Part shown: piece after piece, positions 1 through 64,000 of the stretch | Position numbering within the stretch: position 1 is the first letter of the stretch | Layout of the letters: every line of letters starts with the position of its first letter | DNA from: Bacteroidales bacterium | GTDB taxonomy: Bacteria; Bacteroidota; Bacteroidia; Bacteroidales; UBA3824 | Reading direction: 5' to 3' | Assembly: GCA_024401025.1 (NCBI GenBank) | Contig: JAKSLV010000004.1 | Coordinates: 23-64,022 of the forward strand | DNA: 64,000 nt | The notes under the pieces: model-generated | Told to the model about the DNA's origin: nothing | The model's database searches: none | The model's input: only the letters and a program-made list of their open reading frames with translations | Made by a program: the position numbers and the translations under genes

Positions 1-1924
1 GAATCTCATGAGTATGCTCGTCTATGAGCTTCAGGATTTTGTCGCGGTCCAGATCCGAGGCATCAAGCTTGAAGAAATCAATGCAGATATTAAGACTCTT
101 TAGCTTGTCGGTGAGGTTCTTGAAGAAAATATCCAACTGCTCGGCCGATTGCGAGTTCATCACGGTGATGTCCACAAGCTGCTCTATGGCCTGCTTTATC
201 TGCAAAGTTTTCTGAAGCTGGTCGGTGCACGATTCCGAAATCTCAGCCACCTTCTGGGCATTCTCCTGAATCCTGGGCGAAATATGCTCGATGAGCCTTG
301 CGCTGCGCTCCGTAATCTTGAGAGTCTCAGCCGACGAGTTGTTGATCTCCTGGCTGGCCTTCTGGCAACGCTCAGAGAGCTTGCGGATTTCCTCGGCCAC
401 CACGGCAAAGGTCTTGCCATGCTCGCCCGCGCGCGACGCCGCCACGGCAGCATTTACGGCAAGGATATCAGTCTTGTGGGTAATCTCGTTGATTATCTTG
501 GCCTTTTCGATAACATTCTGCATGCACGACAGCGCATTAACGCTGGCATCAGTAACAGTTTGAATATCATCAGAAATCTGCAACGAGTTGTCGCGGGTAA
601 CCAGCGCCTTGTCGGTATTGTCCTTGATGATGTCGGAGATATTCTCCACGCTCACCGAAATCTGCTCCACAGTGGCCGACTGGGTCTGCGCGCCATCCGA
701 AACCTTTGATATCGACGATGTAAGGCATACCGAATCCTCCGAAATGCCACGGGTGTAGTTTCTGATATTGCCCACGGCATCATAAACCTTGCCCTGCATC
801 TTCTTAAGGTTCTGCTTCAGCAAATCCATCTCGGTGTGGGTTTCCAGCCCGTCTATGGCTGTGGAATACAGATTGCCGTCGGCAAAATCGTCGGTAAACT
901 GGTTCACGGATTCCAGAGGCTCCGAAACCAGCCTCCTCGTAAGCCTGCGCGCCACCACAAACAAGGCTACGATAACGGCTATAGTAAGGAGCACCATCAT
1001 CAGCAGGATAAAATAATAATCCTTGTAGAACTGATACTTGGGTATCGCGATGGCCAGGGCAAGCTGCGACAATCCCGGAATCATGGCGTAATACACCATG
1101 ATGGGAGTCTTGGTCTCGTTGCTGAAAACCGACTCGCCCGTAAACTCCACATTGAAATGCGACTCCTCGAAACGCTTGAAACTATTGGTGAAAACGGTGT
1201 CGATGCCCGTGAAACCCATCTCCACAAACTTGTTGATGTGCATGGAAACTGGCTCCTTGGAGGGGCTGTACCACCTCACCATGCCGGTGCCCTCCACCAG
1301 CAGGCTGGATCCAGCCCCGTTAAGGTTCAGGGAAGAAAGGTTCCGGTCGAAATCTGCCGTGCCGAAATACACTGTAACAATACCAAGAAGCTGCCAGTAT
1401 TGATTGGCGCACACCAGCGACAGGCTGTAGCACTCCTCTCCCACCGCGTCCTCGTACTGGCAGTTGCCGAAACACATCCAGTTGTGGTTTTCCACAATCT
1501 CCTCGTAATAATGGCGGTGGATGGCGCTCTCGGCGTCCTTGCCATTAATGGAATTGTACGACACGCCGTTTGGCAACGTAAGGCGCACCATCTTGCTGGG
1601 GTTGCCGTGGTCCCTCATCACGTCCGATATCTTGGCGAAAGATTGGTCAATATCGTTGAAATCCACAATGTTGCGCAGCACGCAAAGGTCATCCATGTAC
1701 CTGTAAATGAAGAGGCTGGTGTTGGAAGCCTCTATCCTCAGGGTCTGCCTGATGCTGTCGGTGGTGTTGGTGTATATCCTGTCGAAAACTATCCAGTATA
1801 TCACAACATCCAGCACCAGTATCAGCCCTATCACGGTAATCATGAGCGACCTCAGCATCTGCCTGCTTATGGTAGTCTGGCCCTTTACGGACCATAAATC
1901 TGATATCTTCTGTCTTATATCCAT
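1..1924 (-). CDS. methyl-accepting chemotaxis protein with periplasmic Cache-like sensor (3' end runs off the window start)
   Basis: Absent from the ORF track because no stop lies in the window. Manual reverse-strand reading gives ATG at 1922-1924 (MDIRQKISDLW...) with the frame open down to position 2. Layout is TM helix, about 250-aa periplasmic region, second TM, then the MCP signalling hairpin INEITHKTDILAVNAAVAASRAGEHGKTFAVVAEEIRKL (rc of ~390-510). The + ORFs 149..709 and 836..1897 are antisense shadows. Confidence 0.85.
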   Translation of the reverse strand, partial: MDIRQKISDLWSVKGQTTISRQMLRSLMITVIGLILVLDVVIYWIVFDRIYTNTTDSIRQTLRIEASNTSLFIYRYMDDLCVLRNIVDFNDIDQSFAKISDVMRDHGNPSKMVRLTLPNGVSYNSINGKDAESAIHRHYYEEIVENHNWMCFGNCQYEDAVGEECYSLSLVCANQYWQLLGIVTVYFGTADFDRNLSSLNLNGAGSSLLVEGTGMVRWYSPSKEPVSMHINKFVEMGFTGIDTVFTNSFKRFEESHFNVEFTGESVFSNETKTPIMVYYAMIPGLSQLALAIAIPKYQFYKDYYFILLMMVLLTIAVIVALFVVARRLTRRLVSEPLESVNQFTDDFADGNLYSTAIDGLETHTEMDLLKQNLKKMQGKVYDAVGNIRNYTRGISEDSVCLTSSISKVSDGAQTQSATVEQISVSVENISDIIKDNTDKALVTRDNSLQISDDIQTVTDASVNALSCMQNVIEKAKIINEITHKTDILAVNAAVAASRAGEHGKTFAVVAEEIRKLSERCQKASQEINNSSAETLKITERSARLIEHISPRIQENAQKVAEISESCTDQLQKTLQIKQAIEQLVDITVMNSQSAEQLDIFFKNLTDKLKSLNICIDFFKLDASDLDRDKILKLIDEHTHEI

Positions 1925-30050: not shown

Positions 30051-32186
30051 CTATACTCGGCTCATCTTATCCTGGAGAGCCTCGTTGTCGCCCTTAAGCT
30101 CCAAAACCTTGGATTCAAGCTCGGCAATCTTCTCGTATTCGGCTGTAAAGTCTTTGGCTACAACGCAAATCTTCAGGAGCACGTTGTACTCGTCGCGGAT
30201 TGGGGTGAAAGTCTCGTTTAGCCAGAACACCTTGCCGTTGAAAGCGTATCTTGAAACGGCAGAATATATAAGGCCGTCGGCCAGACGCTTCATGCCGTCG
30301 TTGAAAGCCTTTATGTCGTCGTCCTGAGTCATGAACGAGCGCAGGTCGTGGTTTTCCAGCTCTATGAAAGGCATGTTGATGATCTGGAGCATGCGTGGAT
30401 TCATCAATGAGTACAATCCAAGAGCATCCAGCTCGTAATATCCTACCGAGTTGTTCACCACAAACTGGTTAGACATCAGCTCGTCCTTAAGCTTCTCGTT
30501 GCTCTCGTTCAGCTTCTGGATAACCGACTGATTGGTCTCGGCCTGGTTTTCGAAATCGTCGTGGAGTTTCTGATACCTTACACTCTCGCGCTTGTTGATA
30601 TCCTCCAGATTCTCAATCTTGGTCTTCAGGCTCTCGATAATCTTATGAACCTCGCTCTCCTGCTGTGCAAGACGCTCGGTTTTCTGGTTGGATTCCTCAA
30701 GGAGTCGCTGGGTGTTCATATTGATCTTCACGTTTGCTATGGTAGAGGCAATGGTCTCGCCTATCTTCTCGATAAACTCCACCTGATACTTCTCTATCAC
30801 CTGGAAAGATGCCAGCTCCACAATACCGTATGTCTCGCCGTTCACCTTTAGAGGCACAATCACAAGACATGTAGGATCGGCCTCGCCAAGACCCGAGCTA
30901 ATATGTACATATCCCTTTGGAATATCTGTCATGAATACGGTCTCGTTCTCGCGGAAACACTGTCCCACAAGGTTCTCGCCTATCTCGATGCGCTGTTTTA
31001 CGTACTTGAGGCGGTCGTATGCGTAGAAAGCGGTAAGCTCCAGATGTATGTCGTTCTCGTCGGAATCGTCAAGAATGTAGATACCACCCATGTTGGCGTC
31101 CAGATATCTTACCAGACGCTCGATAACCTTGTTGGAAAGCAGCTGCATATCGTCGCCGGCGTTGCGGAGCACCTCGTTGAACTCGGCAAGACCCTGAGCC
31201 TGCCAGTTGCGCTGCGAGTTCTCCTCCTTACGCTGCTCGGCTTCCTTGTCGGCCTTTATAAGGTTGTCGCGCATCACAAGCAGAGAGTTGGCCAGGATGT
31301 CGCGCTTGCTCTGTGGACGGAATTCCGATGCAAAATCACCCTCTCCGATCTTTATCGCAAACTGCGATGTTTCCTTAAGGTTGGATACCAGATTGTTCAA
31401 TGTGGACGAAATCTCGCCAATCTCGTCGTTGCCCTTTACATCTATCGCCGGAAGACCTCCGTCGGCCATATCCTTGATGCGGTCCTTAACATAGTTGAGC
31501 CGGCTGATGGAATGGTTCAACATCAGCATTATCACTATCACGAAGGCAATACAGCCCAGGATGATGTACACAAGCATTCTGTCGGAATCCTCGAAACCCT
31601 CCTGCATTGCCAGAATCTGCTGCTCCTCTTCCTGGGCTAGCGATTCTGTAAGCTTGGTGGCAAGCATCAGGGCATTCTTGTAGCACTGATATATGTCGCC
31701 ATCCACAATGCTGAACTTGCGGTACGAGAAACTGGTTACGTCCTTGAATCTGTCGATATTGTCGAGCTCCTCCAGGAAATCCTCCTGCATTGGCCTCAGG
31801 GTGTCCATGAGGTTGCAGAGGCTGAAGAGCAGGTCGTAGTTTTCCTTTTTCCATTTCTCCTTCTTGCACTTGTTGTATAGCACGTCCTGCACTCTCTTGT
31901 ACTCGGTATCCTTCAGCCAGCGGATCTGACCGCTGAGCTTGGTGTCGGTAGGGTCGCCCTTCAGGGCATAGAGAGTAAGAAGATACTGAGACTCAACAAT
32001 AATGTCCTTAAATTTCTCGGAGTATACCATCGAAGGGAATTCCTTCTCGATATTATCCGTAACATTGTCGCGGATAGCTTTCTGACTGCGGTCGAAACCC
32101 ATATACATCAGAAAAAACAGCACGCCCAAAAGCAAAAAGGCGAGCATCATCTTCAGTTTTAGCGAGAATCGGAAGTTGTATTTCAT
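30051..32186 (-). CDS. membrane sensor protein: TM - extracytoplasmic region - TM - HAMP - GAF - coiled coil - PAS-like, with no recognisable output domain
   Basis: HAMP: DRIKDMADGGLPAIDVKGNDEIGEISSTLNNLVSNL. GAF: LVRYLDANMGGIYILDD...VPLKVNGETYGIVELASF. C-terminal PAS-like: FNGKVFWLNETFTPIRDEYNVLLKICVVAKDFT. Confidence 0.7.
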   Translation of the reverse strand: MKYNFRFSLKLKMMLAFLLLGVLFFLMYMGFDRSQKAIRDNVTDNIEKEFPSMVYSEKFKDIIVESQYLLTLYALKGDPTDTKLSGQIRWLKDTEYKRVQDVLYNKCKKEKWKKENYDLLFSLCNLMDTLRPMQEDFLEELDNIDRFKDVTSFSYRKFSIVDGDIYQCYKNALMLATKLTESLAQEEEQQILAMQEGFEDSDRMLVYIILGCIAFVIVIMLMLNHSISRLNYVKDRIKDMADGGLPAIDVKGNDEIGEISSTLNNLVSNLKETSQFAIKIGEGDFASEFRPQSKRDILANSLLVMRDNLIKADKEAEQRKEENSQRNWQAQGLAEFNEVLRNAGDDMQLLSNKVIERLVRYLDANMGGIYILDDSDENDIHLELTAFYAYDRLKYVKQRIEIGENLVGQCFRENETVFMTDIPKGYVHISSGLGEADPTCLVIVPLKVNGETYGIVELASFQVIEKYQVEFIEKIGETIASTIANVKINMNTQRLLEESNQKTERLAQQESEVHKIIESLKTKIENLEDINKRESVRYQKLHDDFENQAETNQSVIQKLNESNEKLKDELMSNQFVVNNSVGYYELDALGLYSLMNPRMLQIINMPFIELENHDLRSFMTQDDDIKAFNDGMKRLADGLIYSAVSRYAFNGKVFWLNETFTPIRDEYNVLLKICVVAKDFTAEYEKIAELESKVLELKGDNEALQDKMSRV

Positions 32187-42633: not shown

Positions 42634-45600
42634 ATGAAACATATACGCATATTACTGATTATCATTATATTGGCATTAGGCTGCGACACATTTGCCCAGC
42701 TTAACAGGGCAGGTACGCCCTATATGAGACGGCTGAAAGTGACAGAGCAGGGCGGCAACAAGCAAACCATGGACGTGGCTGCCGACAAAAATGGAGTAAT
42801 GTATTTTGCCAACACCAGCGGCGGAGTACTGATATATGACGGCACAAACTGGAACTCGGTAAAGCACTCATGGTCGATACACTCGCTATGCATCGATGAT
42901 GAGACCAACAACGTATACGTGGGTGCCGACAATGATTTCGGCGTGCTGAAAACCAATGCCAACTACCAATACGAGGTGCTCTCATACAAGGACAAAATCG
43001 ACGAGCAGTATCAGAACATCGACAGAATATTCAACATACTATGCTCCAAGAAGGAGGGCACGGTGTTCCAGTGCACCAAGTACATCTTTGCAATAAAGAA
43101 CGACAGCATAAAAGTAATATCCGACCCCACCAGCATAAACGCCGGATTCAACAGCATATACAAGTGCGGCGAGAGGATTTTTGCCGTGCACGAAACCAAT
43201 GGAATAAAGGAGGTGGTGGATGGCGAGCTCAAAAACCTTCCAGAGCTGGCTGAAACTGGCAGCAAGATAAAATACATCGGACAAAACGACAACGGCGCAA
43301 TCATAATAATAAACCTAAACAAGGGCATCATGGAATTCGCCAACAACGAGCTGAGCTTTATCGACAGCCCGTTCAACGAGTATATCAGAAAATACTCCAG
43401 CAACATCGAGCGAATCCTGCGTACACACGACGGCAACTTTGTATTTGCCATACGCTCTGTGGGTCTGGTGATTACCGATTGCAACTTCAACATAATAAAA
43501 GAGATGCGCCTGCAGGGCATCAACTCCATCAATCGACTCTACGAGGACCACAACCACCTTCTGTGGATATGCTCCAACGAGGACGTGGTGCTGATAGACC
43601 TGTTCTCGCCATATTCCACCTATTACTACAACGAGACCGGAATACACGGCAGCCTAAAGTCGATACTCAGATACGGCAAAAACATCTATCTGGGTGCTGA
43701 TGCCGTATATCAGACCGACAGCATAGAGAATGCAACATTCAAGGAGCTAAAGAGCAACAAAGGCTACACCGCCATGTGGAGCCTCGACACCATAAACGGC
43801 AGAATATTCGGCGGATCCAACAAGGGACTCTTCACCATAGACTCGCTGAACAATTTCATCAACATAGACGCCGTAGACAAAGACAGGAACGTATTCAAGT
43901 TCAAGATTCCTAATGACAACCCCAACGTGCTGATAGGCATCGGATTGTATGGAATCTCAACATATCAGAAAACCGGCGACAAATGGAATTATAAAGTGGG
44001 CGCCGATGTAGGCCCCGACAATTTCCAGAAAAAATCGCGCTACATAGAGGCCGATGACGACGGATACTACTGGGTATCGCACAAGGACTACGGATTGTAC
44101 CGCCTGAAACTGAACGCCACTTACGACACCGTACTGAGCGCCGAGTTTTTCGACCAAAGCAAGGGCCTGCCTTCTGATGCCGACAACTACGTGTTCAGGG
44201 CCGACAAGGGCATAGTGTTTGCCACCACCGATGGCATATACAAATACGACCGAGAGTCGGGCATGATGGTGGAGGACATCAGGATGAACACCATCTTCGG
44301 CGGCAAGAAGAGATTCGACCTCATATACTACGACCAGAACGGAAGCATCTGGGTGAAACATGTAGTAAAAAAGGCCAAGAGCAACGACAACGAGTGGTAT
44401 CTTGAGCAATACATACTTACAAGCGACAGCACCGCCGAGTGCATTTCCAACCAGTACAATGTATTCAAGGACAACATATACGCATTTGGCTCGGTTGGCG
44501 ATGGCAAATACGTGATTGGAAGCGGCGACAGGTTCACACTCTACAACAGCAACATATCCAAGGATTTCTTTGCCCCATACAAGGCCATAATCCGCAAGAT
44601 GGAAAACATCGGAACCGACTCGCTAATATACGGCGGCAACTACACCGACTCGGAAAGCCTGAATATAGAGCTGCCGTTTGCAATGTCGTATTCGTCGCGA
44701 AGCATAAGAATAACATTCGCATCAGCCTTCTACGAATACCCTGAGGCTTGCAAGTTCAACACATATCTGGAGAATGCCGACGAGGACTGGACCGGATACC
44801 GCGGCGAGAACTTCAAGGAATACGTAAACCTGTGGCCGGGCACCTACACCATGCACGTGAAGGCCCGCAACATATACGGCGTGGAGAGCGAGGAGGCCAC
44901 CCTCACATTCAAGATACTGCCACCGTGGTATCTCACCAAGCTGGCCATAGTGATATACGTAATCCTGTTTGGATTGCTGATATGGCTTATAATAGTAATG
45001 TACACACAGAAGCTTATCCGCGACAAGCAGAATCTTGAGAAGATAGTGGAGGAGCGCACAGCCGAGATACGCAAGCAGAGCCAGCTGATCATGGAGCAGA
45101 ACAAGTCGATAACCGACTCCATCAACTACGCCAAGCACATACAGAGGGCCATGCTGCCGCTCGACGAGAAGATAGCAGCCGTGTTGCCAAACCACTTTAT
45201 ACTGTTCCGACCCAAGGACATAGTATCAGGCGACTATTACTGGTTTGCCGAAACCGACAAGTACATACTGATAACCGCCGCCGACTGCACAGGCCACGGC
45301 GTTCCGGGCGCTTTCATGAGCATGATAGGTTCGCAGATACTCACCGAGATTGTGGGAGAGGGAATCACATCGCCCGACCTGATACTCACCAACCAGAACC
45401 GCCGCATCAGGAAAGCCCTGAAGCAGGACACCACCGAAAACCACGACGGCATGGACATGGCACTCTGCACCATCAACAAGGAGACTCACGTGGTGGAGTT
45501 TGCCGGTGCCAAAAACCAGCTGGTGGTGATAAAGAACGGCGAGCTTACCGAATACAAGGCCGACAAGCAGGGTATCGGAGGCACACAGCTCTACGGCGAC

Positions 45601-45861
45601 GACTTCCAGTACAAGAAGACCTCCATAGAACCCGACGGCAACACTTGGTTCTACATGTTCTCCGACGGATACAAGGACCAGTTTGGAGGCCCCGACAACA
45701 GCAAGTTCCTCATAAAGAGACTGCGACAGCTGCTGCTCGATATCCACGAGAAGAGCCCCGAGGAGCAGCGCAAGATCCTGGACGACACCATCCAAGACTG
45801 GATAGACAAAGGCAAGGGCGAACAAACCGACGACATAATACTGATGGGATTTAAGCTGTAA
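42634..45861 (+). CDS. periplasmic beta-propeller/Y_Y_Y sensor fused to a cytoplasmic PP2C (SpoIIE-type) phosphatase
   Basis: Signal/TM, two-component-regulator propeller-like repeats, Y_Y_Y LENADEDWTGYRGENFKEYVNLWPGTYTMHVKARN, TM LAIVIYVILFGLLIWLIIVMY, coiled coil. PP2C motifs INYAKHIQRAMLP, SGDYYWF, ADCTGHGVPGAFMS, FSDGYKDQFGG, DDIILMGFKL. Confidence 0.8.
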   Translation: MKHIRILLIIIILALGCDTFAQLNRAGTPYMRRLKVTEQGGNKQTMDVAADKNGVMYFANTSGGVLIYDGTNWNSVKHSWSIHSLCIDDETNNVYVGADNDFGVLKTNANYQYEVLSYKDKIDEQYQNIDRIFNILCSKKEGTVFQCTKYIFAIKNDSIKVISDPTSINAGFNSIYKCGERIFAVHETNGIKEVVDGELKNLPELAETGSKIKYIGQNDNGAIIIINLNKGIMEFANNELSFIDSPFNEYIRKYSSNIERILRTHDGNFVFAIRSVGLVITDCNFNIIKEMRLQGINSINRLYEDHNHLLWICSNEDVVLIDLFSPYSTYYYNETGIHGSLKSILRYGKNIYLGADAVYQTDSIENATFKELKSNKGYTAMWSLDTINGRIFGGSNKGLFTIDSLNNFINIDAVDKDRNVFKFKIPNDNPNVLIGIGLYGISTYQKTGDKWNYKVGADVGPDNFQKKSRYIEADDDGYYWVSHKDYGLYRLKLNATYDTVLSAEFFDQSKGLPSDADNYVFRADKGIVFATTDGIYKYDRESGMMVEDIRMNTIFGGKKRFDLIYYDQNGSIWVKHVVKKAKSNDNEWYLEQYILTSDSTAECISNQYNVFKDNIYAFGSVGDGKYVIGSGDRFTLYNSNISKDFFAPYKAIIRKMENIGTDSLIYGGNYTDSESLNIELPFAMSYSSRSIRITFASAFYEYPEACKFNTYLENADEDWTGYRGENFKEYVNLWPGTYTMHVKARNIYGVESEEATLTFKILPPWYLTKLAIVIYVILFGLLIWLIIVMYTQKLIRDKQNLEKIVEERTAEIRKQSQLIMEQNKSITDSINYAKHIQRAMLPLDEKIAAVLPNHFILFRPKDIVSGDYYWFAETDKYILITAADCTGHGVPGAFMSMIGSQILTEIVGEGITSPDLILTNQNRRIRKALKQDTTENHDGMDMALCTINKETHVVEFAGAKNQLVVIKNGELTEYKADKQGIGGTQLYGDDFQYKKTSIEPDGNTWFYMFSDGYKDQFGGPDNSKFLIKRLRQLLLDIHEKSPEEQRKILDDTIQDWIDKGKGEQTDDIILMGFKL

Positions 45862-58091: not shown

Positions 58092-58508
58092 ATGAAAAGA
58101 CTGTACGGCATAATAAGCATAGCGATGATCTGCATGGCCGCATGGATTACCTCATGCGGGCCCGTAAAAGACTGCGACGAGGTGGGGCAGAATTTCTACC
58201 AGAGCCTAAGGGAGGGCGACATAAACAAGGCCATCCAGTATCTGGACCACGAGGCGCTAAACCAGACTCCAGAGGATATATGGAGGCAGGGCCTGCTGCA
58301 AAAATCCAACAACCTGGGCATGATACTGAACATAGAGCGAAACGATTTTGAATCGGAGACCAGGGACAACGTTACCCGGGTAACCATCAAATACAAGATA
58401 CATTACTCGAAAGCCACGATGTTTGAGAGGCTGGAATTTGTGGAGCGCGATTCCAAATACAGGATCACATTCTACAAGTTTGACGAGGACTCCACAATGG
58501 TAAACTAA
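58092..58508 (+). CDS. hypothetical lipoprotein (small NTF2-like fold suspected)
   Basis: Lipobox IAMICMAAWITSC. 138 aa. Ends 4 nt before the recX start. Confidence 0.5.
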   Translation: MKRLYGIISIAMICMAAWITSCGPVKDCDEVGQNFYQSLREGDINKAIQYLDHEALNQTPEDIWRQGLLQKSNNLGMILNIERNDFESETRDNVTRVTIKYKIHYSKATMFERLEFVERDSKYRITFYKFDEDSTMVN

Positions 58509-58512
58509 CACT

Positions 58513-58998
58513 ATGACAGAGGAAACCGCTAAAACACTAAGCAAACTGATGGTACTATGCTCGCGCGCGGAGAAATGCGAGAGCGAGGCATACAAATACA
58601 TGACAACCAGGGGCGCCACCAACGAGGAAGCCTTCGAGGCTGTGGAATATCTTACGGCAAACCAATACGTGGACAACGAGAGATATGCCAGAAGCTACGT
58701 GGCCGACAAGGCCAGATTCAACAAATGGGGCAAGGACAAGATTGTGATGCAGCTGAGGATAAAACAGATACCTGACTCGGTGATAAACGGGGCCATTGAG
58801 GAAATTTTTGACCCCGAACTGGAAAAAAACACAATTTCGACCGAACTGGCAAAAAAATTGCGGGGACTAAAAGACGACGAGCCCCGCGCCAAGGCATGGG
58901 AGAAGCTGATGCGTTTTGCCGCCGGACGCGGATACCCGGCCGCCACATGCGGCCCAATAATTACAAAGATGTTGAACGACAGGCAAAACAACAACTAG
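58513..58998 (+). CDS. recX: RecX-family regulatory protein
   Basis: Three-helix repeat pattern: LMVLCSRAEKCESEAYKYM, YLTANQYVDNERYARSYVADKARFNKWGKDKIVMQLRIKQI. 161 aa. Confidence 0.65.
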   Translation: MTEETAKTLSKLMVLCSRAEKCESEAYKYMTTRGATNEEAFEAVEYLTANQYVDNERYARSYVADKARFNKWGKDKIVMQLRIKQIPDSVINGAIEEIFDPELEKNTISTELAKKLRGLKDDEPRAKAWEKLMRFAAGRGYPAATCGPIITKMLNDRQNNN

Positions 58999-59003: not shown

Positions 59004-59723
59004 ATGGACAACAACTACAGCGCGGCCAGGCAAGCCGCCGGACAGGACGACATCGACAGCGCGATACTTAGCGCCGTGGTGGCCGCCGAGGAGCGTCAGA
59101 GAACGCTGCTGGCCCAGGAGCTGCACGACGGAATGGGTGCCACGCTGTCGAGCGTGAACATATACCTGAACCTGATACTATCGGGCGGCGTGGAGGTGGA
59201 GGAGATTTTCAGGACGGTGCGCCTGGCCAAAGACCTTGTGGGACAGGCCATAGAAAACGTAAAGGAGATAGCCAACAACCTTCACCCGGTGATACTGAGC
59301 AGGTTTGGCCTGGTGGCCACCATAGCCAACATGATAGAGACACTGGAGCAGCAGAGGATAGTGAAATTTGATTTTGCGCATCAGGGCTACTCCGACATCA
59401 GCAACAAGGACCTGGAGCTTACACTCTACAGGATAGTGAACGAGCTGATGACCAACACGCTGAAATACGCCGAGGCCAAGAGCGCGACCATAAGCCTGCA
59501 ACGCGGCATCAGCAACATAAGGCTGATGTACAGCGACAACGGCAAGGGTTTCGACCCCAGCCTGGCGGGCAAAAACCCCGGAAGCATGGGAATGGGCCTG
59601 GGCAACATACAGGCCAGGGCCAAGAGCTACGGCGGAAGCTGCGATCTGTGGTCGCAGCCGGGAAAGGGCATGAGAGTGGAGATAGACATACCATACAGCG
59701 AGCCCGGCCAAATCCCGGAATAA
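59004..59723 (+). CDS. soluble sensor-less histidine kinase, HisKA_3 (NarX/LiaS) type
   Basis: H-box LAQELHDGMGATLS, N-box IVNELMTNTLKYA, DNGKGF, GMGLGNI. Only ~35 aa precede the H-box, with no TM. ATG at residue 37 of the track ORF, 5 nt after recX. Confidence 0.8.
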   Translation: MDNNYSAARQAAGQDDIDSAILSAVVAAEERQRTLLAQELHDGMGATLSSVNIYLNLILSGGVEVEEIFRTVRLAKDLVGQAIENVKEIANNLHPVILSRFGLVATIANMIETLEQQRIVKFDFAHQGYSDISNKDLELTLYRIVNELMTNTLKYAEAKSATISLQRGISNIRLMYSDNGKGFDPSLAGKNPGSMGMGLGNIQARAKSYGGSCDLWSQPGKGMRVEIDIPYSEPGQIPE

Positions 59724-59767
59724 AAAAACAACGACATTAATAGATCTATTAAAAAACATATTGACAC

Positions 59768-60544
59768 ATGAAAGTAATACTGGTAGATGACAAGTTGGTT
59801 TACAGAAACGCCATCAAGACCCTCTTGCAGAAACTTGGCGAGGTGGAAATCATTGCCGAAGCCAGCAACGGAAAGGAATTCCTGAAGCTGCTGGACACAT
59901 GCGACCCCGACCTGGTGTTCATAGACATAGAGATGCCAGAGATGAATGGAATTGAGGCCACAAGAGAGGCCCTCAAGATAAATCCATCGCTGGTGATAAT
60001 AGGCCTGTCGATGTACGACAACAAGAAGTATGTAAACGACCTTATAGATGCCGGCGCACGCGGATACCTCCTGAAACTAAGCGACAACTCACAGATTTTC
60101 AGAGAAATACTAAAGAATCCAAGGGCCGAGGTATTCTTCAGCAAGGAGATATCTCCCGACAACGGCATGGAGGACAACTCCAAGAAAACCATCCTGATAG
60201 CCGACGACTTCGAGAACACAAGGTTTGTGATAGAGTTTACCCTTAAGCAGGCCGGATACGAGGTGCTGAAGGCCACCGACGGACAGGACGCCCTGAAGTA
60301 TTTCGACGGCAGAAAGATCGACCTTCTGGTAACCGACCTAAACATGCCGCGCAAAAACGGACTGGAGCTGGCCGAAACCGTGAAATCGATGCCCGAATAC
60401 AGGAGCATCCCCATCCTGCTGCTGACCACCGAGATAAACGAGGAGAAGAAGCAGAAATCCAAGCAGATAGGCATCACCGGATGGATACAGAAACCTTTCG
60501 TTATCGATAAGTTCCTGATGTTCATCAAGAAGGCGCTTCAGTAA
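59768..60544 (+). CDS. dual-receiver response regulator (NarL-type REC + CheY-type REC), no output domain
   Basis: REC1: ILVDD, LVFIDIEMPEMNG, GLSMY, GYLLK. REC2: ILIADD, LLVTDLNMPRKNG, LLLTTE, GWIQKPF. 258 aa in total. Confidence 0.85.
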   Translation: MKVILVDDKLVYRNAIKTLLQKLGEVEIIAEASNGKEFLKLLDTCDPDLVFIDIEMPEMNGIEATREALKINPSLVIIGLSMYDNKKYVNDLIDAGARGYLLKLSDNSQIFREILKNPRAEVFFSKEISPDNGMEDNSKKTILIADDFENTRFVIEFTLKQAGYEVLKATDGQDALKYFDGRKIDLLVTDLNMPRKNGLELAETVKSMPEYRSIPILLLTTEINEEKKQKSKQIGITGWIQKPFVIDKFLMFIKKALQ

Positions 60545-60590
60545 TAGAAAAAAAAGAAAGAACAGAAAAACCCATTCTCCCAAAGAGGCC

Positions 60591-62726
60591 ATGCTAGAAC
60601 AGTTTAAACAAAAATACCTGGACGAGGTAAACGACCTGCTGAACGACCTGGAGGGCGCGATGCTGGAGCTGGAGAAAAATCCATCCAGCCAGGAGGTTGT
60701 AAACGAGGTGTTCAGGGTTATGCATACGATAAAGGGCACCAGCGGAATGTACGATTTCAAGACCGTGGAAAAGATAACCCACGATGTGGAGAGCATCTAC
60801 GGCAAAATCCGCGACAACCACCTCTCGGTATCGAAGGAGGTGAGCGCCCTTACGCTAGAATGCATAGACCTGCTGCGCAAGCTGCTCAACCAGCCCGACG
60901 ACAACGACGACGAGCAGGTGAACGATTTTCTTGCCCAGCTGGCACTGCTTGGCGGACAGGAGCCGGCACAATCCGCCGGCAACGGGGAGGAGGATGGCGG
61001 AGGTTTCCTTGCCGACGAGGCCGACAAGCCCGGGCTGAAGGAGGCCACATATTACGTGCTGTTTGCCCCTGAGGCCGACATCACCGGACGCGGCGTAAAC
61101 ATAAAGGGAATACTGGCCGACATCAAGAACATAGGCACCGGAATCACCATGACCAGATCGTGGCCGGAGCAGCAGGCCGACAACGGCAAGTTCTACATGT
61201 ATTGGGAGGCCATTTTCAGCACGTCGAAAGCCAAGGCCGAGCTGGACGAGATTTTCATCTTTGTGCCCGACGAGGTGGAGATCACCAAGCTGTCGGACAG
61301 CAACCTGTTCATGAACGAGGATTTTGTGGCACAGGTAACGATGTATCAGAGCATAGAGGAGCAGATAGACGTAAACGAGCTAAAGGCCCTGGCCATGATG
61401 GTGGCGCCACAGGCGGAAACGGCAGCACCGGCCCCGGCATCAGAGACAAAGGAGCCTGGCCCTGATACCGCCGCCAAGGGCACGGACGCGCCACAGCAGC
61501 ATCAGGCCGAGCCACACAAAACAGACGACAAGATTTCCGGCGAGGAGAAGATCATAGCCAAAAACATAGAGGCCAGCGACACCAAGGCATCCAGCATAAA
61601 GGTGGATTCCGACAAGCTGGACGAGCTGATGAACCTGGTATCGGAGCTGGTGACCACCAAGGCCGAGCTGCTGCTGATGGCCGAGAAATACGACATACCC
61701 GAGCTTTCCACCATCTGCGAGAAGGTGGACAAGCTTAGCAACAAGTTCAAGGACAACGCCCTGAGCATACGCCTGGTGCCCATAGAGAGCATGATGCTGA
61801 GATTCCAGCGCCTGGTGCGCGACCTTAGCAAGGAGCTGGGCAAGAAGATAGAATTTGTGACCGACGGCACCGACACCGAGCTTGACAAGACCATAATAGA
61901 CAACCTGGCCGTGCCGCTGATGCACATAATAAGGAACAGCATAGACCACGGCATAGAGCCCGTGGAGCGCAGGCGCGAGCTTAAGAAGCCCGACCACGGC
62001 ACAATAAAATTCACCGCATTCTATTCGGGAAGCAATGTATTCATACAGGTGCAGGACGACGGCGCCGGCATGAGGCCCGACTATCTGAGGCGCAAGGCCA
62101 TAGAGAAGGGGTTCATAAAGCCGGGCGACAACCCTACCGACCGTCAGCTCTACGACCTGGTGTTTCTGCCCGGATTCTCCACAGCGCAGAAGATTACCGG
62201 AATATCGGGCCGCGGCGTGGGCATGGACGTGGTGAAACAGAACATCATAAAGCTGAGGGGCGAGATAGAGATGGACAGCGAGATAGACCTCGGCACCATC
62301 ACCACCATAAAGCTTCCGCTTACACTAAGCATAGTGGACGCGCTGCTGGTATCCGTAGGCAACACATTATTGCTGATACCCGTGGCCATAATAGACAGCT
62401 GCACGCAGATAACCCGCAACATACTGAAAGACAGCAAGGGACGTTTCATCTACGAGAACGAGCCCACCCCCATCATAGACCTTAGGAAGGAGCTGGAGAT
62501 AAGCGGCGAGATACCCGAGGAGGAGAACGTGGTGTTGGTGAAATACAAGGACGGACGCGTGGGCCTGATAGTGGACAGGATTGTGGGTGAGCATCAGGCC
62601 GTGCTGAAATCGCTTGGAAAGTATTTCGCCAACCAGGAATACATAAGCGGCGGCAGCATACTGGGCGACGGCAGCATAGCCCTGGTACTGGATACAAACA
62701 AACTGATAAAACAACTGGAGAAATAA
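60591..62726 (+). CDS. cheA: chemotaxis histidine kinase CheA
   Basis: Hpt VFRVMHTIKGTSGMY. Dimerisation SIKVDSDKLDELMNLVSELV. N-box LMHIIRNSIDHGIE, G1 VQDDGAGM, G2 GISGRGVGMDVV. C-terminal CheW-like P5. No fused receiver. Confidence 0.9.
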   Translation: MLEQFKQKYLDEVNDLLNDLEGAMLELEKNPSSQEVVNEVFRVMHTIKGTSGMYDFKTVEKITHDVESIYGKIRDNHLSVSKEVSALTLECIDLLRKLLNQPDDNDDEQVNDFLAQLALLGGQEPAQSAGNGEEDGGGFLADEADKPGLKEATYYVLFAPEADITGRGVNIKGILADIKNIGTGITMTRSWPEQQADNGKFYMYWEAIFSTSKAKAELDEIFIFVPDEVEITKLSDSNLFMNEDFVAQVTMYQSIEEQIDVNELKALAMMVAPQAETAAPAPASETKEPGPDTAAKGTDAPQQHQAEPHKTDDKISGEEKIIAKNIEASDTKASSIKVDSDKLDELMNLVSELVTTKAELLLMAEKYDIPELSTICEKVDKLSNKFKDNALSIRLVPIESMMLRFQRLVRDLSKELGKKIEFVTDGTDTELDKTIIDNLAVPLMHIIRNSIDHGIEPVERRRELKKPDHGTIKFTAFYSGSNVFIQVQDDGAGMRPDYLRRKAIEKGFIKPGDNPTDRQLYDLVFLPGFSTAQKITGISGRGVGMDVVKQNIIKLRGEIEMDSEIDLGTITTIKLPLTLSIVDALLVSVGNTLLLIPVAIIDSCTQITRNILKDSKGRFIYENEPTPIIDLRKELEISGEIPEEENVVLVKYKDGRVGLIVDRIVGEHQAVLKSLGKYFANQEYISGGSILGDGSIALVLDTNKLIKQLEK

Positions 62727-62727
62727 T

Positions 62728-63213
62728 ATGGCAAACTACAGCGGAGCCACACCATATTTGTCGTTTTGGCTAAACGACGAGCTATTCGCCTACAAGGTGG
62801 AGGACGTGATAGAGGTACTGGAAATGCAGAAGATAACCGTGGTGCCCAAATCGCAGCCCTACATAATGGGAGTGATAAACTTCCGCGGCGAGATACTGCC
62901 TGTGATAGACGTAAGGCAGAAATGCGGACTGGACGCGGGCAAGGTTTTCGACCCCGTGGACAGCGTGATTGTGGTGCTGGAGGTCTGCAAGGACGATCCC
63001 GACTACAGGATTACCGTGGGATCGATAGTGGAAAGGGTGAGCGACGTGGTGCAGGTGAAGCCCATCGACATAAAACCCGTGCCGGAGTTCGACACCAAGA
63101 TAAACGCCGAGTATACCGAGGGCATTTTCAGCCACGGCGACAGGTTTATCACCATACTTGACACCACCAAGATTTTCTCGCTAGGTTACACATCATCAAA
63201 CAACACAAAATGA
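62728..63213 (+). CDS. cheW: chemotaxis coupling protein CheW
   Basis: YLSFWLNDELFAY...VPKSQPYIMGVINFRGEILPVIDV. 161 aa, starts 1 nt after the cheA stop. Confidence 0.9.
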   Translation: MANYSGATPYLSFWLNDELFAYKVEDVIEVLEMQKITVVPKSQPYIMGVINFRGEILPVIDVRQKCGLDAGKVFDPVDSVIVVLEVCKDDPDYRITVGSIVERVSDVVQVKPIDIKPVPEFDTKINAEYTEGIFSHGDRFITILDTTKIFSLGYTSSNNTK

Positions 63214-64000
63214 AACTAGGAAACGCATTAAACATCAAGATGTTAAGCCACAAATCCATCTTGGGCAAATACCTGAAGATAACGATGTTTGTGGTTGCCA
63301 CAACGATAGTATCGGTTTTCATGGGCATTTTCTATTTCCATGTGAAGGGCCTCATGGAACAGAACGGTCTGGACAGGCTGGAGCAGATGTCGAGCGCCAC
63401 GGGCGGAATGACAACTTCGATAATAACCAACTGCGTGGGCCTGAACACCACACTTGCTGATGCTTTTGCCCTAAGCAAGAGCGATTCGATGCACATAAGC
63501 TACTCGCGCGACAATATAAAGAACCTGGTGAAGATGGGTCTCAACAAATTGCCGTCGGTGGCTTTGCAGGGCGTGTACTGGGAGAAGAACGCTTTTGACG
63601 GCCGCGACGACAGCAATGCCGACCATCCCGACTACGCCAATTACAATGGCAGGATGTGCTATTTCTACGCCAGAAACTCGGAGGGCAATGCGCCCGGCGA
63701 GATGGTGGCCGACCATGGCTACGAGTTCGACACCGAGCTCTACAACGAGCTTAAGAAGCGCAAGGAGCCTGTGGTGTTTGCGCCTCAGGAGATGGTGATA
63801 AACAACAAGAAATCAACGGTTTTGCCCGTGATGGTGCCCATAATGGACCGCGGCAGCGTTTACGGATGCGTGTTCTCGCTGCTGAGGCTGGATTTCGCAT
63901 TCGGCATCTGCAAGAGCATCCGCGACAGCGTGAAGGCCGAGGCCAACATCGCGATAGTGGACAGCGACCTAAACATAATAACTTGCACGCAGAACCCCAC
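63210..64000 (+). CDS. probable methyl-accepting chemotaxis protein, N-terminal TM + Cache-like sensor (runs off window end)
   Basis: Absent from the ORF track (no stop in the window). ATG 63210 overlaps the cheW stop (ATGA) and the frame is open to 64000. TM LKITMFVVATTIVSVFMGIFYF. Cache-like EPVVFAPQEMVINNKKSTVLPVMVPIMDRGSVYGCVFSLLRLDF. The MCP call is by context, because the signalling domain is off-window. Confidence 0.6.
   Translation, partial: MKLGNALNIKMLSHKSILGKYLKITMFVVATTIVSVFMGIFYFHVKGLMEQNGLDRLEQMSSATGGMTTSIITNCVGLNTTLADAFALSKSDSMHISYSRDNIKNLVKMGLNKLPSVALQGVYWEKNAFDGRDDSNADHPDYANYNGRMCYFYARNSEGNAPGEMVADHGYEFDTELYNELKKRKEPVVFAPQEMVINNKKSTVLPVMVPIMDRGSVYGCVFSLLRLDFAFGICKSIRDSVKAEANIAIVDSDLNIITCTQNP

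What the first reader, a model, noticed from the sequence alone, without database searches (positions are those of the whole stretch)
59004..64000. Che-type chemosensory cluster in a T9SS/gliding-type Bacteroidota context: possible Frz-like control module
Five tightly spaced same-strand genes encode a HisKA_3 kinase, a REC-REC protein, CheA (Hpt-dimerisation-HATPase-P5), CheW and a Cache-type MCP. The cheA/cheW gap is 1 nt and cheW/MCP overlap by ATGA.

A second Cache MCP sits at 1-1924, so more than one receptor probably feeds the system. The same 64 kb carries a gldJ-like gene, two PorP/SprF genes and a PorE-like gene. It has no flagellar gene.

The only candidate output is a stand-alone dual-receiver protein. 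That is the architecture of FrzZ, the output of the Myxococcus Frz pathway that controls gliding reversals.

To my knowledge, no Che pathway has been functionally tied to Bacteroidota gliding or T9SS, and the model glider Flavobacterium johnsoniae is generally described as lacking che genes. This would therefore be an undescribed regulatory system. CheR and CheB are not seen but could lie just past 64000.
Basis: partly seen in the sequence, partly recalled or inferred. Interest (0 to 1): 0.8.

Follow-up and report, generated by a model that had tools for sequence, protein, structure and literature searches.

The report
Streamlined Che pathway with hybrid dual-receiver output
An uncultured, non-flagellated gut/rumen-type Bacteroidales bacterium carries a real but stripped-down chemotaxis-like signalling operon whose output protein fuses a NarL-type receiver to the pathway's own CheY; nothing found here ties it to gliding, and what it controls is unknown.

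Summary
The five genes are present exactly as described: a HisKA_3 kinase core, REC-REC, CheA, CheW and an MCP. A second MCP lies at 1-1924 on the minus strand.

An identical contig extends past 64000. The MCP is 676 aa and ends at a terminator, followed by an unrelated ATPase gene. There is no cheR or cheB downstream.

Relatives show the origin. Many Bacteroidota carry a complete cluster, STAS-CheY-CheA-CheW-MCP-CheR-kinase-CheD-CheB. This gene order matches the proteobacterial "ancestral F7" systems, whose function is unknown.

The window holds a reduced derivative:
- STAS, CheR and CheB are absent from the cluster.
- The MCP has lost its C-terminal pentapeptide.
- CheY (REC2, 50% identical to the cluster CheYs) is fused behind a NarL-type receiver (REC1), the natural partner of the adjacent HisKA_3 kinase.

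REC-REC is therefore not FrzZ-like in origin, and every Frz feature I tested fails.

No T9SS or gliding homologue appears in 408 kb around 22 related Che loci. The recurrent neighbours are RecX, a GAF-PAS protein and PP2C phosphatases.

Verdict: a real, conserved, uncharacterised Che variant. Control of gliding is possible but unsupported.

The parts
59004..59723 (+). Sensor-less HisKA_3 histidine kinase core (DHp + catalytic domain, 239 aa, no TM segment). It is the shortened form of the REC-PAS-HisKA_3 kinase of relatives.
   Evidence: Pfam HisKA_3 and HATPase_c. H-box LHDG, N-box, G1 DNGKGFD and G2 GMGLGN all intact when aligned with full-length relatives. No TM segment. A 238-aa form is shared by the 84% relative L086; 494-787 aa REC-PAS forms occur in L082, L084, L087, L088, L089.
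59768..60544 (+). REC-REC output protein. REC1 (aa 1-128) is a NarL-type receiver with the NarL-family post-alpha5 linker. A floppy linker spans aa 129-136. REC2 (aa ~138-258) is the CheY orthologue.
   Evidence: Two Response_reg domains. REC2 is 50-52% identical over its full length to the 121-aa CheYs upstream of CheA in L002/L004/L006/L010/L016. REC1 is 38-40% identical to REC-GerE regulators and 48-52% to database NarL/FixJ regulators. D53, K103, D190, K242 are invariant in 79 homologues. AF2: two REC folds, pTM 0.55. It is the most conserved protein of the operon.
60591..62726 (+). CheA: Hpt (aa 5-95, H45), a ferredoxin-like domain at the P2 position (aa 148-245), an Ala/Pro/Thr-rich linker, dimerisation domain (334-393), HATPase (441-578) and CheW-like P5 (584-709). 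No receiver domain.
   Evidence: Pfam. H45 invariant in 14 relatives. PDB hits to E. coli and T. maritima CheA. Middle domain: AF2 and Foldseek.
62728..63213 (+). CheW coupling protein (161 aa).
   Evidence: Pfam CheW, 96.6 bits. 1-nt gap after cheA.
63210..64000 (+). MCP2, the N-terminal 263 aa of a 676-aa transmembrane chemoreceptor. It has 2 TM segments, a ~280-aa periplasmic domain, HAMP and a 34H-type signalling domain, with no C-terminal pentapeptide. It continues 1241 nt beyond the window.
   Evidence: Full gene read on identical contig L001. MCPsignal and weak HAMP. TM segments. Two symmetric 7-residue gaps relative to Tsr. Terminator after the stop codon.
1..1924 (-). MCP1, a second transmembrane chemoreceptor (641 aa visible, C-terminus off the window) with its own TAnnTTTG motif upstream. 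Same 34H-type signalling domain; probably feeds the same CheA.
   Evidence: MCPsignal 82 bits; TM segments; 30-32% identity to MCP2 over the cytoplasmic part; alignment; TATATTTG at 1966-1973, minus strand.
58513..58998 (+). RecX-like gene, 5 nt upstream of the kinase gene. It is conserved at this position in all six gut/rumen-clade loci and is probably co-transcribed. No functional link is shown.
   Evidence: Pfam RecX_HTH2 in the precomputed gene tables. tblastn.
58092..58508 (+). Small predicted lipoprotein (138 aa), 4 nt upstream of recX. It precedes RecX-kinase-REC-REC-CheA-CheW in all six clade loci. Function unknown.
   Evidence: ORF and sequence. 130-142 aa gene with no Pfam hit at the same position in L082, L084, L086, L087, L088, L089. 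Identities 27-82%.
30051..32186 (-). TM-HAMP-GAF-PAS protein (711 aa). It is a homologue of the GAF/PAS protein that closes the complete Che clusters of other Bacteroidota. Possible dispersed member of the system.
   Evidence: Pfam HAMP, GAF_2, PAS_9. 29-39% identity over 300-520 aa to the cluster-linked proteins in L002, L004, L005, L010, L016, L022, L090.
42634..45861 (+). Reg_prop/Y_Y_Y sensor fused to a SpoIIE-type PP2C phosphatase (1075 aa). Possible associated output element, by recurrent neighbourhood only.
   Evidence: Pfam SpoIIE, Y_Y_Y. NCBIfam SiaA-like, 194 bits. 40% identical over the PP2C domain to the TPR-SpoIIE gene that directly follows cheW in L089. Homologues lie 5 kb from cheW in L082 and L087.

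Best explanation
The cluster is a working, streamlined chemosensory phosphorelay. It descends from a complete Che cluster that is widespread in Bacteroidota and that mirrors the 'ancestral F7' clusters of proteobacteria.

Proposed mechanism:
1. Two transmembrane 34H-type receptors bind periplasmic ligands. These are MCP2 in the operon and MCP1 at 1-1924.
2. Through CheW, the receptors set the autophosphorylation rate of CheA at H45.
3. CheA phosphorylates D190 of REC2, the CheY half of the REC-REC protein.
4. The adjacent sensor-less HisKA_3 kinase phosphorylates or dephosphorylates D53 of REC1, the NarL-type half.
5. REC-REC is thus a small diffusible integrator. It combines chemoreceptor input with the state of a two-component kinase and acts by protein-protein contact, since it has no DNA-binding or enzymatic domain.
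6. Methylation-based adaptation has been reduced or lost.

I judge the downstream target most likely to be a non-flagellar regulatory process inherited from the ancestral system. Candidates are the recurrently linked PP2C phosphatase/partner-switching proteins, or the kinase itself. A motility motor seems less likely.

Shown: gene content, domain identity, the origin of each receiver, conservation, and the absence of adaptation genes from the cluster.
Inferred: who phosphorylates which receiver, and the target.
For: Gene content and extension:
- Domains and spacing are as described.
- The operon ends at a terminator with no cheR/cheB.

Family and relatives:
- About 111 CheA clusters (at 90% identity) are 47-100% identical to the window CheA; the named ones are all Bacteroidales MAGs. 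Six sampled relatives (CheA 47-84% identical) keep RecX-kinase-REC-REC-...-CheA-CheW.
- Relatives at 36-45% CheA identity carry STAS-CheY-CheA-CheW-MCP-CheR-HATPase-CheD-CheB-GAF/PAS.
- That order matches the stage-1 F7 order reported in PMC7184735.

Origin of the two receivers:
- REC2 is 50-52% identical to those CheYs. Its best PDB hit is V. cholerae CheY4 (4HNR/4H60, 89 bits, against ~60 for E. coli CheY).
- REC1 is 38-40% identical to REC-GerE regulators that sit beside REC-PAS-HisKA_3 kinases next to the Che cluster in L002 and L035. It is 48-52% identical to database NarL/FixJ regulators and keeps the NarL-type linker.
- L091 carries the kinase, a NarL regulator, REC-REC and CheA side by side.

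Functional integrity:
- Both phospho-acceptor Asp/Lys pairs are invariant in 79 homologues.
- The kinase motifs are intact.
- REC-REC is the most conserved protein of the operon, at 95/92/78/76/64% against CheA at 84/70/60/55/49%.

Reduced adaptation:
- MCPs of complete clusters end in an xYExF pentapeptide. The window MCP2 and its close orthologues lack it, and two of five methylation-type pairs are eroded.

Neighbourhood:
- PP2C phosphatase, GAF-PAS and RecX genes recur near the cluster. T9SS genes do not.
Against: - No phosphotransfer experiment exists. CheA could phosphorylate both receivers, as FrzE does with FrzZ.
- The kinase could act only as a phosphatase.
- CheR, CheB or CheD may be encoded elsewhere in the genome. 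One clade member (L088) keeps CheD and a pentapeptide-like MCP end, and three of five methylation-type pairs survive in MCP2.
- The proposed non-motility target rests only on neighbourhood and on analogy with F7 systems whose function is itself unknown.
- STAS is absent from the window.
- The PP2C gene is 13 kb away in the window.
- Receptors with large periplasmic domains and a free CheY-type output are the classic signature of taxis. The genome has a GldJ-like gene, which according to PMC12239597 is missing from non-motile T9SS bacteria.
- The formal class (MiST HMMs) was not assigned. The receptors are 34H, as in F8, not 36H as in F7.
Confidence: 0.5

Rival explanations
1. One reading: the pathway steers T9SS-driven gliding, or T9SS activity. 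Phosphorylated REC-REC would bind a cytoplasmic part of the motor (GldL/PorL) or a polarity factor and change the direction or frequency of adhesin movement. This would be a functional analogue of Frz/FrzZ.
For: - Bacteroidia have no flagella, so gliding is the only known motility a taxis-type pathway could serve (my own knowledge).
- The window carries a GldJ-like gene and two PorP/SprF genes.
- GldJ is reported to be missing from non-motile T9SS bacteria, and what controls T9SS direction is described as unknown (PMC12239597).
- A receiver protein, PorX, binds the cytoplasmic domain of PorL (PMC5005315).
- Complete versions of the cluster occur in Alkaliflexus imshenetskii and Flexithrix dorotheae, which I recall are described as gliders.
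- The output is a stand-alone receiver protein with two domains on a flexible linker.
- The receptors are transmembrane with large periplasmic domains.
Against: - No T9SS/gliding homologue lies within 408 kb around 22 related Bacteroidota Che loci, nor in the Pfam gene tables of L082-L092.
- In the window, the nearest T9SS-type gene (the OmpA/PorE-like gene) is about 19 kb from the cluster, and the GldJ-like gene about 45 kb.
- REC1 is NarL-type, not CheY-type.
- CheA lacks the FrzE receiver. The receptors are not FrzCD-like. No CheR/CheB is in the cluster.
- The closest CheY with a solved structure does not bind FliM and has no known motility role.
- From memory, the best-studied gliders (F. 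johnsoniae, Cytophaga) glide and respond to chemicals without che genes. I could not verify this because the paper is not held.
- The clade comes from uncultured MAGs for which gliding has never been observed.
Confidence: 0.17
2. The Che module is an input device for the HisKA_3 two-component system. REC-REC would be a phosphate sink or allosteric modulator of the kinase, in the way DivK modulates DivJ/PleC. The true output would be transcription through a NarL-type regulator encoded elsewhere in the genome.
For: - In relatives the kinase itself carries an N-terminal receiver plus PAS domains. A REC-GerE regulator sits next to it in L002, L004, L014, L035 and L091.
- REC1 derives from that regulator family.
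- The kinase-REC-REC-CheA order is conserved across the clade.
Against: - No REC-GerE regulator occurs in the window or within 10 kb in the six gut-clade loci.
- The window kinase has lost the receiver and PAS domains that would receive such input.
- REC-REC is far more conserved than the kinase core. That suggests additional partners beyond the kinase.
Confidence: 0.2
3. The cluster is a decaying remnant of the complete Bacteroidota Che system and no longer signals.
For: - STAS, CheR and CheB are absent from the cluster (CheD too in the window).
- The kinase's sensor domains are lost.
- The MCP pentapeptide is lost, and two methylation-type pairs are eroded.
Against: - All five ORFs are intact, and all catalytic and phospho-acceptor residues are conserved.
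- The same reduced architecture persists across lineages down to 47% CheA identity and in more than 100 sequence clusters.
- REC-REC is 92-95% identical between lineages whose CheA is 70-84% identical.
Confidence: 0.03

Closest known systems
'Ancestral' F7 chemosensory systems of gamma-proteobacteria (stage 1; V. cholerae cluster III with CheY4, P. aeruginosa Che2), as described in PMC7184735, PMC7534058 and PMC3774744
   Same: - The complete Bacteroidota relatives of this cluster have the same gene order: anti-sigma antagonist (STAS)-cheY-cheA-cheW(-cheW)-MCP-cheR-cheD-cheB. A serine phosphatase recurs nearby.
- REC2's best solved homologue is V. cholerae CheY4.
- The MCP signalling domain aligns best with the 36H receptor Tsr.
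- The biological output is unknown in both.
   Different: - The window version lacks STAS, CheR, CheD and CheB in the cluster.
- Its receptors are transmembrane and 34H (one heptad shorter per arm, the class reported for F8), not soluble Aer2-type 36H.
- CheY is fused to a NarL-type receiver, and a HisKA_3 kinase is part of the operon.
- The complete Bacteroidota clusters carry an extra ~300-aa HATPase protein between CheR and CheD.
- The host has no flagellar F6 system alongside, as far as can be seen.
Frz pathway of Myxococcus xanthus (FrzCD, FrzA/B, FrzE, FrzF, FrzG, FrzZ)
   Same: - It is a Che-type pathway in a non-flagellated gliding-type lineage.
- Its output is a stand-alone protein made of two receiver domains joined by a flexible linker (FrzZ role from PMC3441718).
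   Different: - REC1 is NarL-type and is paired with its own HisKA_3 kinase.
- CheA has no C-terminal receiver.
- The receptors are transmembrane.
- There is no CheR/CheB in the cluster.
- No MglA/MglB/RomR context is seen.
- The two gliding machineries are unrelated.
NarL/LuxR-type two-component systems with HisKA_3 kinases (NarX-NarL, VraS-VraR, DesK-DesR)
   Same: - The kinase has a HisKA_3 DHp and a HATPase_c domain with all motifs.
- REC1 matches VraR and NarL over receiver plus linker (residues 1-140), and REC-GerE regulators at 38-52%.
   Different: - The GerE helix-turn-helix is replaced by a CheY domain.
- The kinase has no sensor or membrane domain in this genome.
- The pair is embedded in a Che operon.
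PorX/PorY regulation of the T9SS in Porphyromonas gingivalis
   Same: - It is a receiver-containing protein in a T9SS-bearing Bacteroidales.
- PorX binds the cytoplasmic domain of PorL, which sets a precedent for a receiver protein touching the T9SS motor (PMC5005315).
   Different: - PorX is REC + PglZ (518 aa) and is phosphorylated by the classical kinase PorY. It has no CheA, CheW or MCP.
- REC-REC has no PglZ domain.

Membership tests
Chemosensory (Che) pathway, core signalling unit | CheA with Hpt, dimerisation, HATPase and CheW-like domains and a phospho-accepting His | tested here: met
   Pfam hits to all four domains. H45 invariant in 14 relatives. 301 bits to E. coli CheA and 293 to T. 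maritima CheA.
Chemosensory (Che) pathway, core signalling unit | CheW and at least one MCP with a signalling hairpin domain | tested here: met
   CheW 96.6 bits. MCPsignal 106 bits (MCP2) and 82 bits (MCP1). The hairpin motif aligns with Tsr.
Chemosensory (Che) pathway, core signalling unit | CheY-type receiver as phosphoryl acceptor | tested here: met
   REC2 is 50-52% identical over its full length to the CheYs encoded next to CheA in related clusters. The Asp/Thr/Lys set is present, and D190/K242 are invariant. Phosphotransfer itself was not tested.
Chemosensory (Che) pathway, adaptation module | CheR methyltransferase and CheB methylesterase (and/or CheD), and receptors with a docking pentapeptide | tested here: not met
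   None in the 64-kb window (tblastn) or in the 0.7 kb read downstream of MCP2. None within 10 kb in L082, L084, L086, L087; L088 keeps only CheD. MCP2 lacks the xYExF end that complete-cluster MCPs carry. Presence elsewhere in the genome could not be tested.
Frz pathway | CheA fused to a C-terminal receiver (FrzE) | tested here: not met
   No Response_reg hit in the 711-aa CheA.
Frz pathway | Cytoplasmic receptor (FrzCD type) | tested here: not met
   MCP1 and MCP2 each have two hydrophobic segments flanking a 230-280 aa external region.
Frz pathway | Dual-receiver output whose two domains are both CheY-like targets of the CheA (FrzZ) | tested here: inconclusive
   The two-receiver architecture is present. 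However, REC1 is NarL-type by sequence and linker. No FrzZ sequence was available for direct alignment, and phosphotransfer was not tested.
Frz pathway | CheA falls in the FrzE clade; MglA/MglB/RomR polarity module present | not tested
   No FrzE, MglA, MglB or RomR sequences were at hand, and the whole genome was not available.
Ancestral F7 (stage 1) / F8-like chemosensory class | Gene order STAS-cheY-cheA-cheW-MCP-cheR-cheD-cheB | tested here: not met
   Met in the distant Bacteroidota relatives L002, L004, L010, L016, L090. Not met in the window itself, which keeps only cheY (fused)-cheA-cheW-MCP.
Ancestral F7 (stage 1) / F8-like chemosensory class | Receptor heptad class (36H for F7, 34H for F8 according to PMC7184735) | tested here: inconclusive
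   All 13 family MCPs show two symmetric 7-residue gaps relative to Tsr, which indicates 34H. This fits F8 rather than F7. The assignment was made by alignment only, not with the published class HMMs.
Ancestral F7 (stage 1) / F8-like chemosensory class | Class assignment of CheA/CheW/CheB/CheR by MiST class HMMs or CheABR phylogeny | not testable with these tools
NarL/HisKA_3 two-component system | HisKA_3 kinase paired with a REC + GerE (LuxR-type HTH) regulator | tested here: not met
   Kinase part met. The partner receiver is NarL-type, but its HTH is replaced by REC2. There is no GerE gene in the window.
PorXY-type T9SS regulator | Receiver fused to a PglZ domain | tested here: not met
   Only Response_reg domains are found in REC-REC.

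The most novel reading that the evidence does not exclude
REC-REC is the missing cytoplasmic switch protein of the rotary T9SS/gliding motor in Che-bearing Bacteroidota. Chemoreceptor input (REC2) and kinase input (REC1) would jointly set its binding to GldL/PorL, giving these bacteria true receptor-based chemotaxis during gliding or chemically gated secretion. It would be the first link between a Che pathway and the T9SS.
Probability: 0.15. Interest if true: 0.85.

Novelty: new variant of a known kind. Interest (0 to 1): 0.5.

Why it matters
Che pathways are almost always studied in flagellated bacteria. This one is a conserved Che family in a phylum without flagella, and it includes abundant uncultured gut/rumen-type Bacteroidales. 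What it controls is unknown.

The window variant shows an unusual wiring. The pathway's CheY is welded to the receiver of a NarL-type regulator, and that regulator's HisKA_3 kinase is kept in the operon. One small protein can therefore integrate a chemoreceptor array and a two-component kinase.

Two open questions would be addressed by working out its target:
- What the 'ancestral F7-type' Che systems do.
- Whether anything cytoplasmic controls the T9SS/gliding motor. A 2025 paper (PMC12239597) still describes the mechanisms controlling T9SS rotational direction as elusive.

Cultivable carriers of the complete system, such as Alkaliflexus imshenetskii and Flexithrix dorotheae, make the question testable.

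Tried and rejected
1. Extension beyond 64000 for cheR/cheB. Done through an identical Logan contig. None found: a terminator, then an ATPase gene.
2. GTDB genome scan with a CheA alignment. 
3. Cache assignment of the MCP sensor domains. Pfam found nothing at E<=0.01. I left it unresolved rather than spend a structure job on it.
4. P2 identity of the CheA middle domain. AF2 gives a confident ferredoxin-like fold, but Foldseek finds no CheA P2 and only weak PII/S6-like matches (TM about 0.3-0.5). 'P2' was therefore rejected as a label.
5. A fixed REC1-REC2 interface. AF2 gives pTM 0.55 and a disordered linker, so there is no evidence for a rigid arrangement.
6. Genomic linkage to T9SS/gliding. 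tblastn of the window's GldJ, PorP/SprF, OmpA/PorE-like and the 16-kb ORF against 22 Che loci gave no hits.
7. Direct alignment with FrzZ. No FrzZ sequence or solved structure was reachable, so I compared architecture and domain origin instead.
8. Literature. Seven full-text searches found no functional study of Che in Bacteroidota. Wuichet & Zhulin 2010 and McBride et al. 2009 are not held, and my guessed id for McBride & Zhu 2013 was not found. The statement that F. johnsoniae lacks che genes therefore rests on memory.
9. Promoter scan. No Bacteroidetes-type TAnnTTTG motif lies on the + strand between 57437 and 64000, and no + strand terminator-like site lies in 56-64 kb. This is compatible with one long transcript starting near 57.0-57.1 kb, but it is weak evidence.

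Full report
**1. The observation**

The + strand from 59004 to the window end carries five tightly packed ORFs.
- Pfam assigns HisKA_3 + HATPase_c to 59004-59723 (239 aa).
- It assigns two Response_reg domains to 59768-60544 (258 aa).
- It assigns Hpt, H-kinase_dim, HATPase_c and CheW to 60591-62726 (711 aa), and CheW to 62728-63213.
- The last ORF, from 63210, runs off the window.
- The cheA stop and the cheW start are 1 nt apart, and cheW/MCP overlap by ATGA.
- A second MCP occupies 1-1924 on the minus strand, with its C-terminus off the window.

The context genes are also there.
- A GldJ-like lipoprotein lies at 12576-14132 (TIGR03524, 442 bits, cutoff 458; GldK only 225).
- Two PorP/SprF genes lie at 14191-15117 and 18400-19428.
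- A PD40/CarboxypepD_reg/OmpA protein lies at 38229-40223. It resembles PorE only below threshold.

Scans of about 45 window ORFs found no flagellar family.

Two details do not hold.
- Pfam sees no Cache domain in either MCP.
- The hoped-for cheR/cheB beyond 64000 do not exist.

**2. Beyond the window**

The CheA protein is also encoded on an 11.2-kb contig from a public sequencing run (L001). That contig is identical to the window over 9229 nt. It shows the following:
- MCP2 is 676 aa.
- A GC-rich hairpin with a T-run follows its stop codon.
- The next gene, 218 nt on, is an unrelated P-loop ATPase.

The operon therefore ends with the MCP. tblastn with CheR, CheB, CheD and STAS proteins from relatives finds none of them anywhere in the 64 kb.

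**3. Who carries it**

- CheA has more than 100 relatives at 45-86% identity. All the named ones are 'MAG: Bacteroidales bacterium'.
- REC-REC has more than 110 full-length homologues (255-267 aa, 33-92% identity) from Bacteroidales and Bacteroidota MAGs.
- Together with the T9SS genes, this places the contig in Bacteroidota, order Bacteroidales.
- I could not place it more finely.

**4. The family and its evolution**

*Distant relatives carry a complete cluster.* These have 36-45% CheA identity and include a Rikenella-like MAG, Agaribacillus, a Paludibacter MAG, Alkaliflexus imshenetskii, Ohtaekwangia and others.
- Their gene order is (divergent ~590-aa coiled-coil protein)-STAS-CheY(121 aa)-CheA-CheW-MCP(s)-CheR-~300-aa HATPase protein-CheD-CheB-GAF/PAS protein.
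- In several of them, a REC-PAS-HisKA_3 kinase and a NarL-type REC-GerE regulator sit just upstream (L002, L004, L014), or divergently on the opposite strand (L035).

*Closer relatives carry the window's form.*
- Six sampled relatives (CheA 47-84% identical) have [small lipoprotein]-RecX-[REC-PAS-HisKA_3 kinase]-REC-REC-(MCP)-CheA-CheW-(MCP).
- Intermediates exist. L088 keeps CheD and an MCP ending in DDFEEF. L089 has a TPR-SpoIIE phosphatase directly after cheW. L091 has the kinase, a NarL regulator, a single REC, REC-REC and CheA in a row.
- The 239-aa kinase of the window is shared with the 84% relative (238 aa, L086). The 70% relative has the 622-aa form.
- The shortened kinase is therefore a fixed state of a subclade, not a fresh lesion, and all its catalytic motifs are intact.

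**5. What REC-REC is**

- REC2 (aa ~138-258) is 50-52% identical over its full length to the 121-aa CheYs of the complete clusters.
- REC1 (aa 1-128) is only 25-29% identical to those CheYs. It is 38-40% identical to the receivers of the REC-GerE regulators next to the HisKA_3 kinases, and 48-52% identical to database NarL/FixJ regulators.
- REC1 matches VraR and NarL in the PDB over residues 1-140.
- It keeps the family's post-alpha5 linker (...NPRAEVFFSKEIS), up to the point where the HTH would start.
- The protein is therefore a NarL-type regulator whose DNA-binding domain has been replaced by the pathway's CheY.
- D53/K103 and D190/K242 are invariant in 79 homologues.
- AlphaFold gives two confident receiver folds joined by a disordered linker (residues 129-136). 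With pTM 0.55, there is no fixed interface.
- REC-REC is the most conserved protein of the operon. Its identity to five relatives is 95/92/78/76/64%, against 84/70/60/55/49% for CheA and 71/55/46/44/36% for the kinase core. This is what one expects of a hub protein with several partners.

**6. Receptors and adaptation**

- Aligned with E. coli Tsr, all 13 MCPs of the family show two symmetric 7-residue gaps. They are therefore one heptad shorter per arm than 36H, which is the 34H type.
- MCPs of complete clusters end in an xYExF pentapeptide (NYERF, NYEQF, DYEKF, EYENF, NYEKF), analogous to the CheR/CheB-docking NWETF of E. coli. That analogy is from my own knowledge.
- MCP2 and its orthologues in L086 and L084 lack the pentapeptide.
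- Two of the five methylation-type Glx pairs in MCP2 are eroded (EQ, EQ, ED, EE, ES).
- Together with the missing genes, this points to reduced or lost methylation adaptation. The rest of the genome could not be checked.

**7. Closest known systems**

*Ancestral F7 systems.*
- Ortega et al. (PMC7184735) describe the oldest 'stage 1' F7 clusters of gamma-proteobacteria as anti-sigma antagonist-cheY-cheA-two cheW-aer2-cheR-cheD-cheB-mcpA-anti-sigma antagonist-serine phosphatase. They call its function still unknown. They note that F8 systems use 34H receptors.
- The complete Bacteroidota clusters have this same order.
- REC2's best solved homologue is 4HNR/4H60 (89 bits, against ~60 for E. coli CheY). 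This is V. cholerae CheY4 of cluster III, which does not bind FliM (PMC3774744).
- V. cholerae cluster III is classed as F7 and its role is unclear (PMC7534058).
- I therefore file the family as F7/F8-like by gene order, CheY similarity and receptor length. Formal class HMMs were not available.

*Frz.* Against Frz, every feature I could test fails or is equivocal.
- There is no receiver on CheA.
- The receptors are transmembrane.
- There is no CheR/CheB in the cluster.
- Only one of the two receivers is CheY-like.

**8. Link to gliding**

*For the link.*
- The phylum has no flagella (my own knowledge).
- The genome has a GldJ-like gene. GldJ is reported absent from non-motile T9SS bacteria, and control of T9SS direction is described as an open problem (PMC12239597).
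- A receiver protein, PorX, binds PorL (PMC5005315).
- Complete clusters occur in species I recall as gliders.

*Against the link.*
- The window's GldJ, PorP/SprF, OmpA/PorE-like and 16-kb ORF proteins have no homologue in 408 kb around 22 related Che loci.
- None of the precomputed Pfam tables for nine loci lists a T9SS family.
- The recurrent neighbours are instead RecX with a small lipoprotein, a HAMP-GAF-PAS protein and PP2C phosphatases. The GAF-PAS homologue in the window is at 30051-32186 and is 34% identical over 395 aa. The window's PP2C gene at 42634-45861 is 40% identical to the one that follows cheW in L089.

I found no functional study of a Che system in Bacteroidota, only annotation remarks.

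**9. Mechanism proposed**

- MCP1 and MCP2 sense periplasmic ligands and, through CheW, control CheA.
- CheA~P (H45) passes phosphate to D190 of REC2.
- The sensor-less HisKA_3 kinase sets the state of D53 in REC1.
- The doubly controlled REC-REC acts on a protein target.

The parts, their origins and their conservation are shown. The phosphotransfer routes and the target are inferred.

I put 0.5 on this integrator model with a non-motility output of the ancestral F7 kind. The alternatives are:
- 0.2 on REC-REC acting mainly back on the HisKA_3 system.
- 0.17 on control of gliding or T9SS.
- 0.03 on a relic.

**10. Verdict**

- The Frz-like interpretation is an analogy of form only.
- The system is a new variant of a known kind: a reduced F7/F8-like Che pathway with a NarL-receiver/CheY fusion output and an embedded HisKA_3 kinase.
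- It is widespread in uncultured Bacteroidales and functionally uncharacterised.
- Interest is moderate (0.5). It would be high if the output turned out to be the T9SS/gliding motor.

Noticed in passing
window 61032-61325 (+), CheA residues 148-245: There is a conserved ~95-aa domain between Hpt and the dimerisation domain. AF2 gives pLDDT 94 and a beta-alpha-beta-beta-alpha-beta ferredoxin-like fold. It has no Pfam hit and no match to CheA P2 structures; the best Foldseek hits are PII-like SbtB and ribosomal S6 (TM about 0.3-0.5). A profile search finds 891 representatives (50% clusters). The full-length ones are mostly 590-860 aa with the domain at ~130-260, so it appears to be a CheA-specific auxiliary domain that the 2023 survey of CheA architectures does not describe.
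   Followed up: partly
window 58092-58998 (+): A 138-aa predicted lipoprotein and a RecX-like gene sit 4-5 nt apart, directly upstream of the kinase gene. They keep this position in all six clade loci, even where the other flanking genes differ. No + strand TAnnTTTG motif lies between 57437 and 64000, so they may share a transcript with the Che genes.
   Followed up: partly
window 12576-15117 (-) and 16024-19428 (+): A PorP/SprF gene lies directly upstream of the GldJ-like gene, reminiscent of porP-porK. An ORF of up to 769 aa with no family hit (its true start may be later) is followed by the second PorP/SprF gene. This may be a T9SS cargo/PorP pair.
   Followed up: no
window 21485-22657 (-): A sigma-54-type response regulator (REC + Sigma54_activat + AAA lid, 390 aa) with no recognisable DNA-binding domain.
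   Followed up: no
L092 4859-14463 (GCA_054003615.1): A distant REC-REC homologue (38% identity) sits inside a complete cluster: CheR-three ~375-aa MCPs that are too short for a periplasmic domain-CheD-REC-REC-CheA-CheW-CheB. No HisKA_3 kinase is nearby, and its REC1 acidic pocket looks degenerate. This arrangement is more Frz-like than the window.
   Followed up: partly
L089 3714-14029: A TPR-SpoIIE (PP2C) phosphatase gene directly follows cheW. A SiaC-family gene lies on the opposite strand upstream of the lipoprotein-RecX pair. The window's Y_Y_Y-SpoIIE protein scores as SiaA-like. This hints at a partner-switching output.
   Followed up: partly
L010 13945-14844; L002 19988-20893; L090 13535-14422: Complete Bacteroidota Che clusters carry a conserved ~300-aa HATPase_c protein between CheR and CheD. 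This gene is not in the published F7 gene order.
   Followed up: no
L002, L004, L010, L016 MCP C-termini; L001 10400-10469: MCPs of complete clusters end in an xYExF pentapeptide after a long low-complexity tether. The pentapeptide is absent from the window's MCP2 and from its orthologues in L086 and L084.
   Followed up: yes
L001 10688-11188; L086 14778-19182: The DNA downstream of the MCP is variable between close relatives. There is a P-loop ATPase gene in the window's lineage, and a restriction-modification set (RE_LlaJI-like, AAA_5, DNA methylase) in the 84% relative.
   Followed up: no
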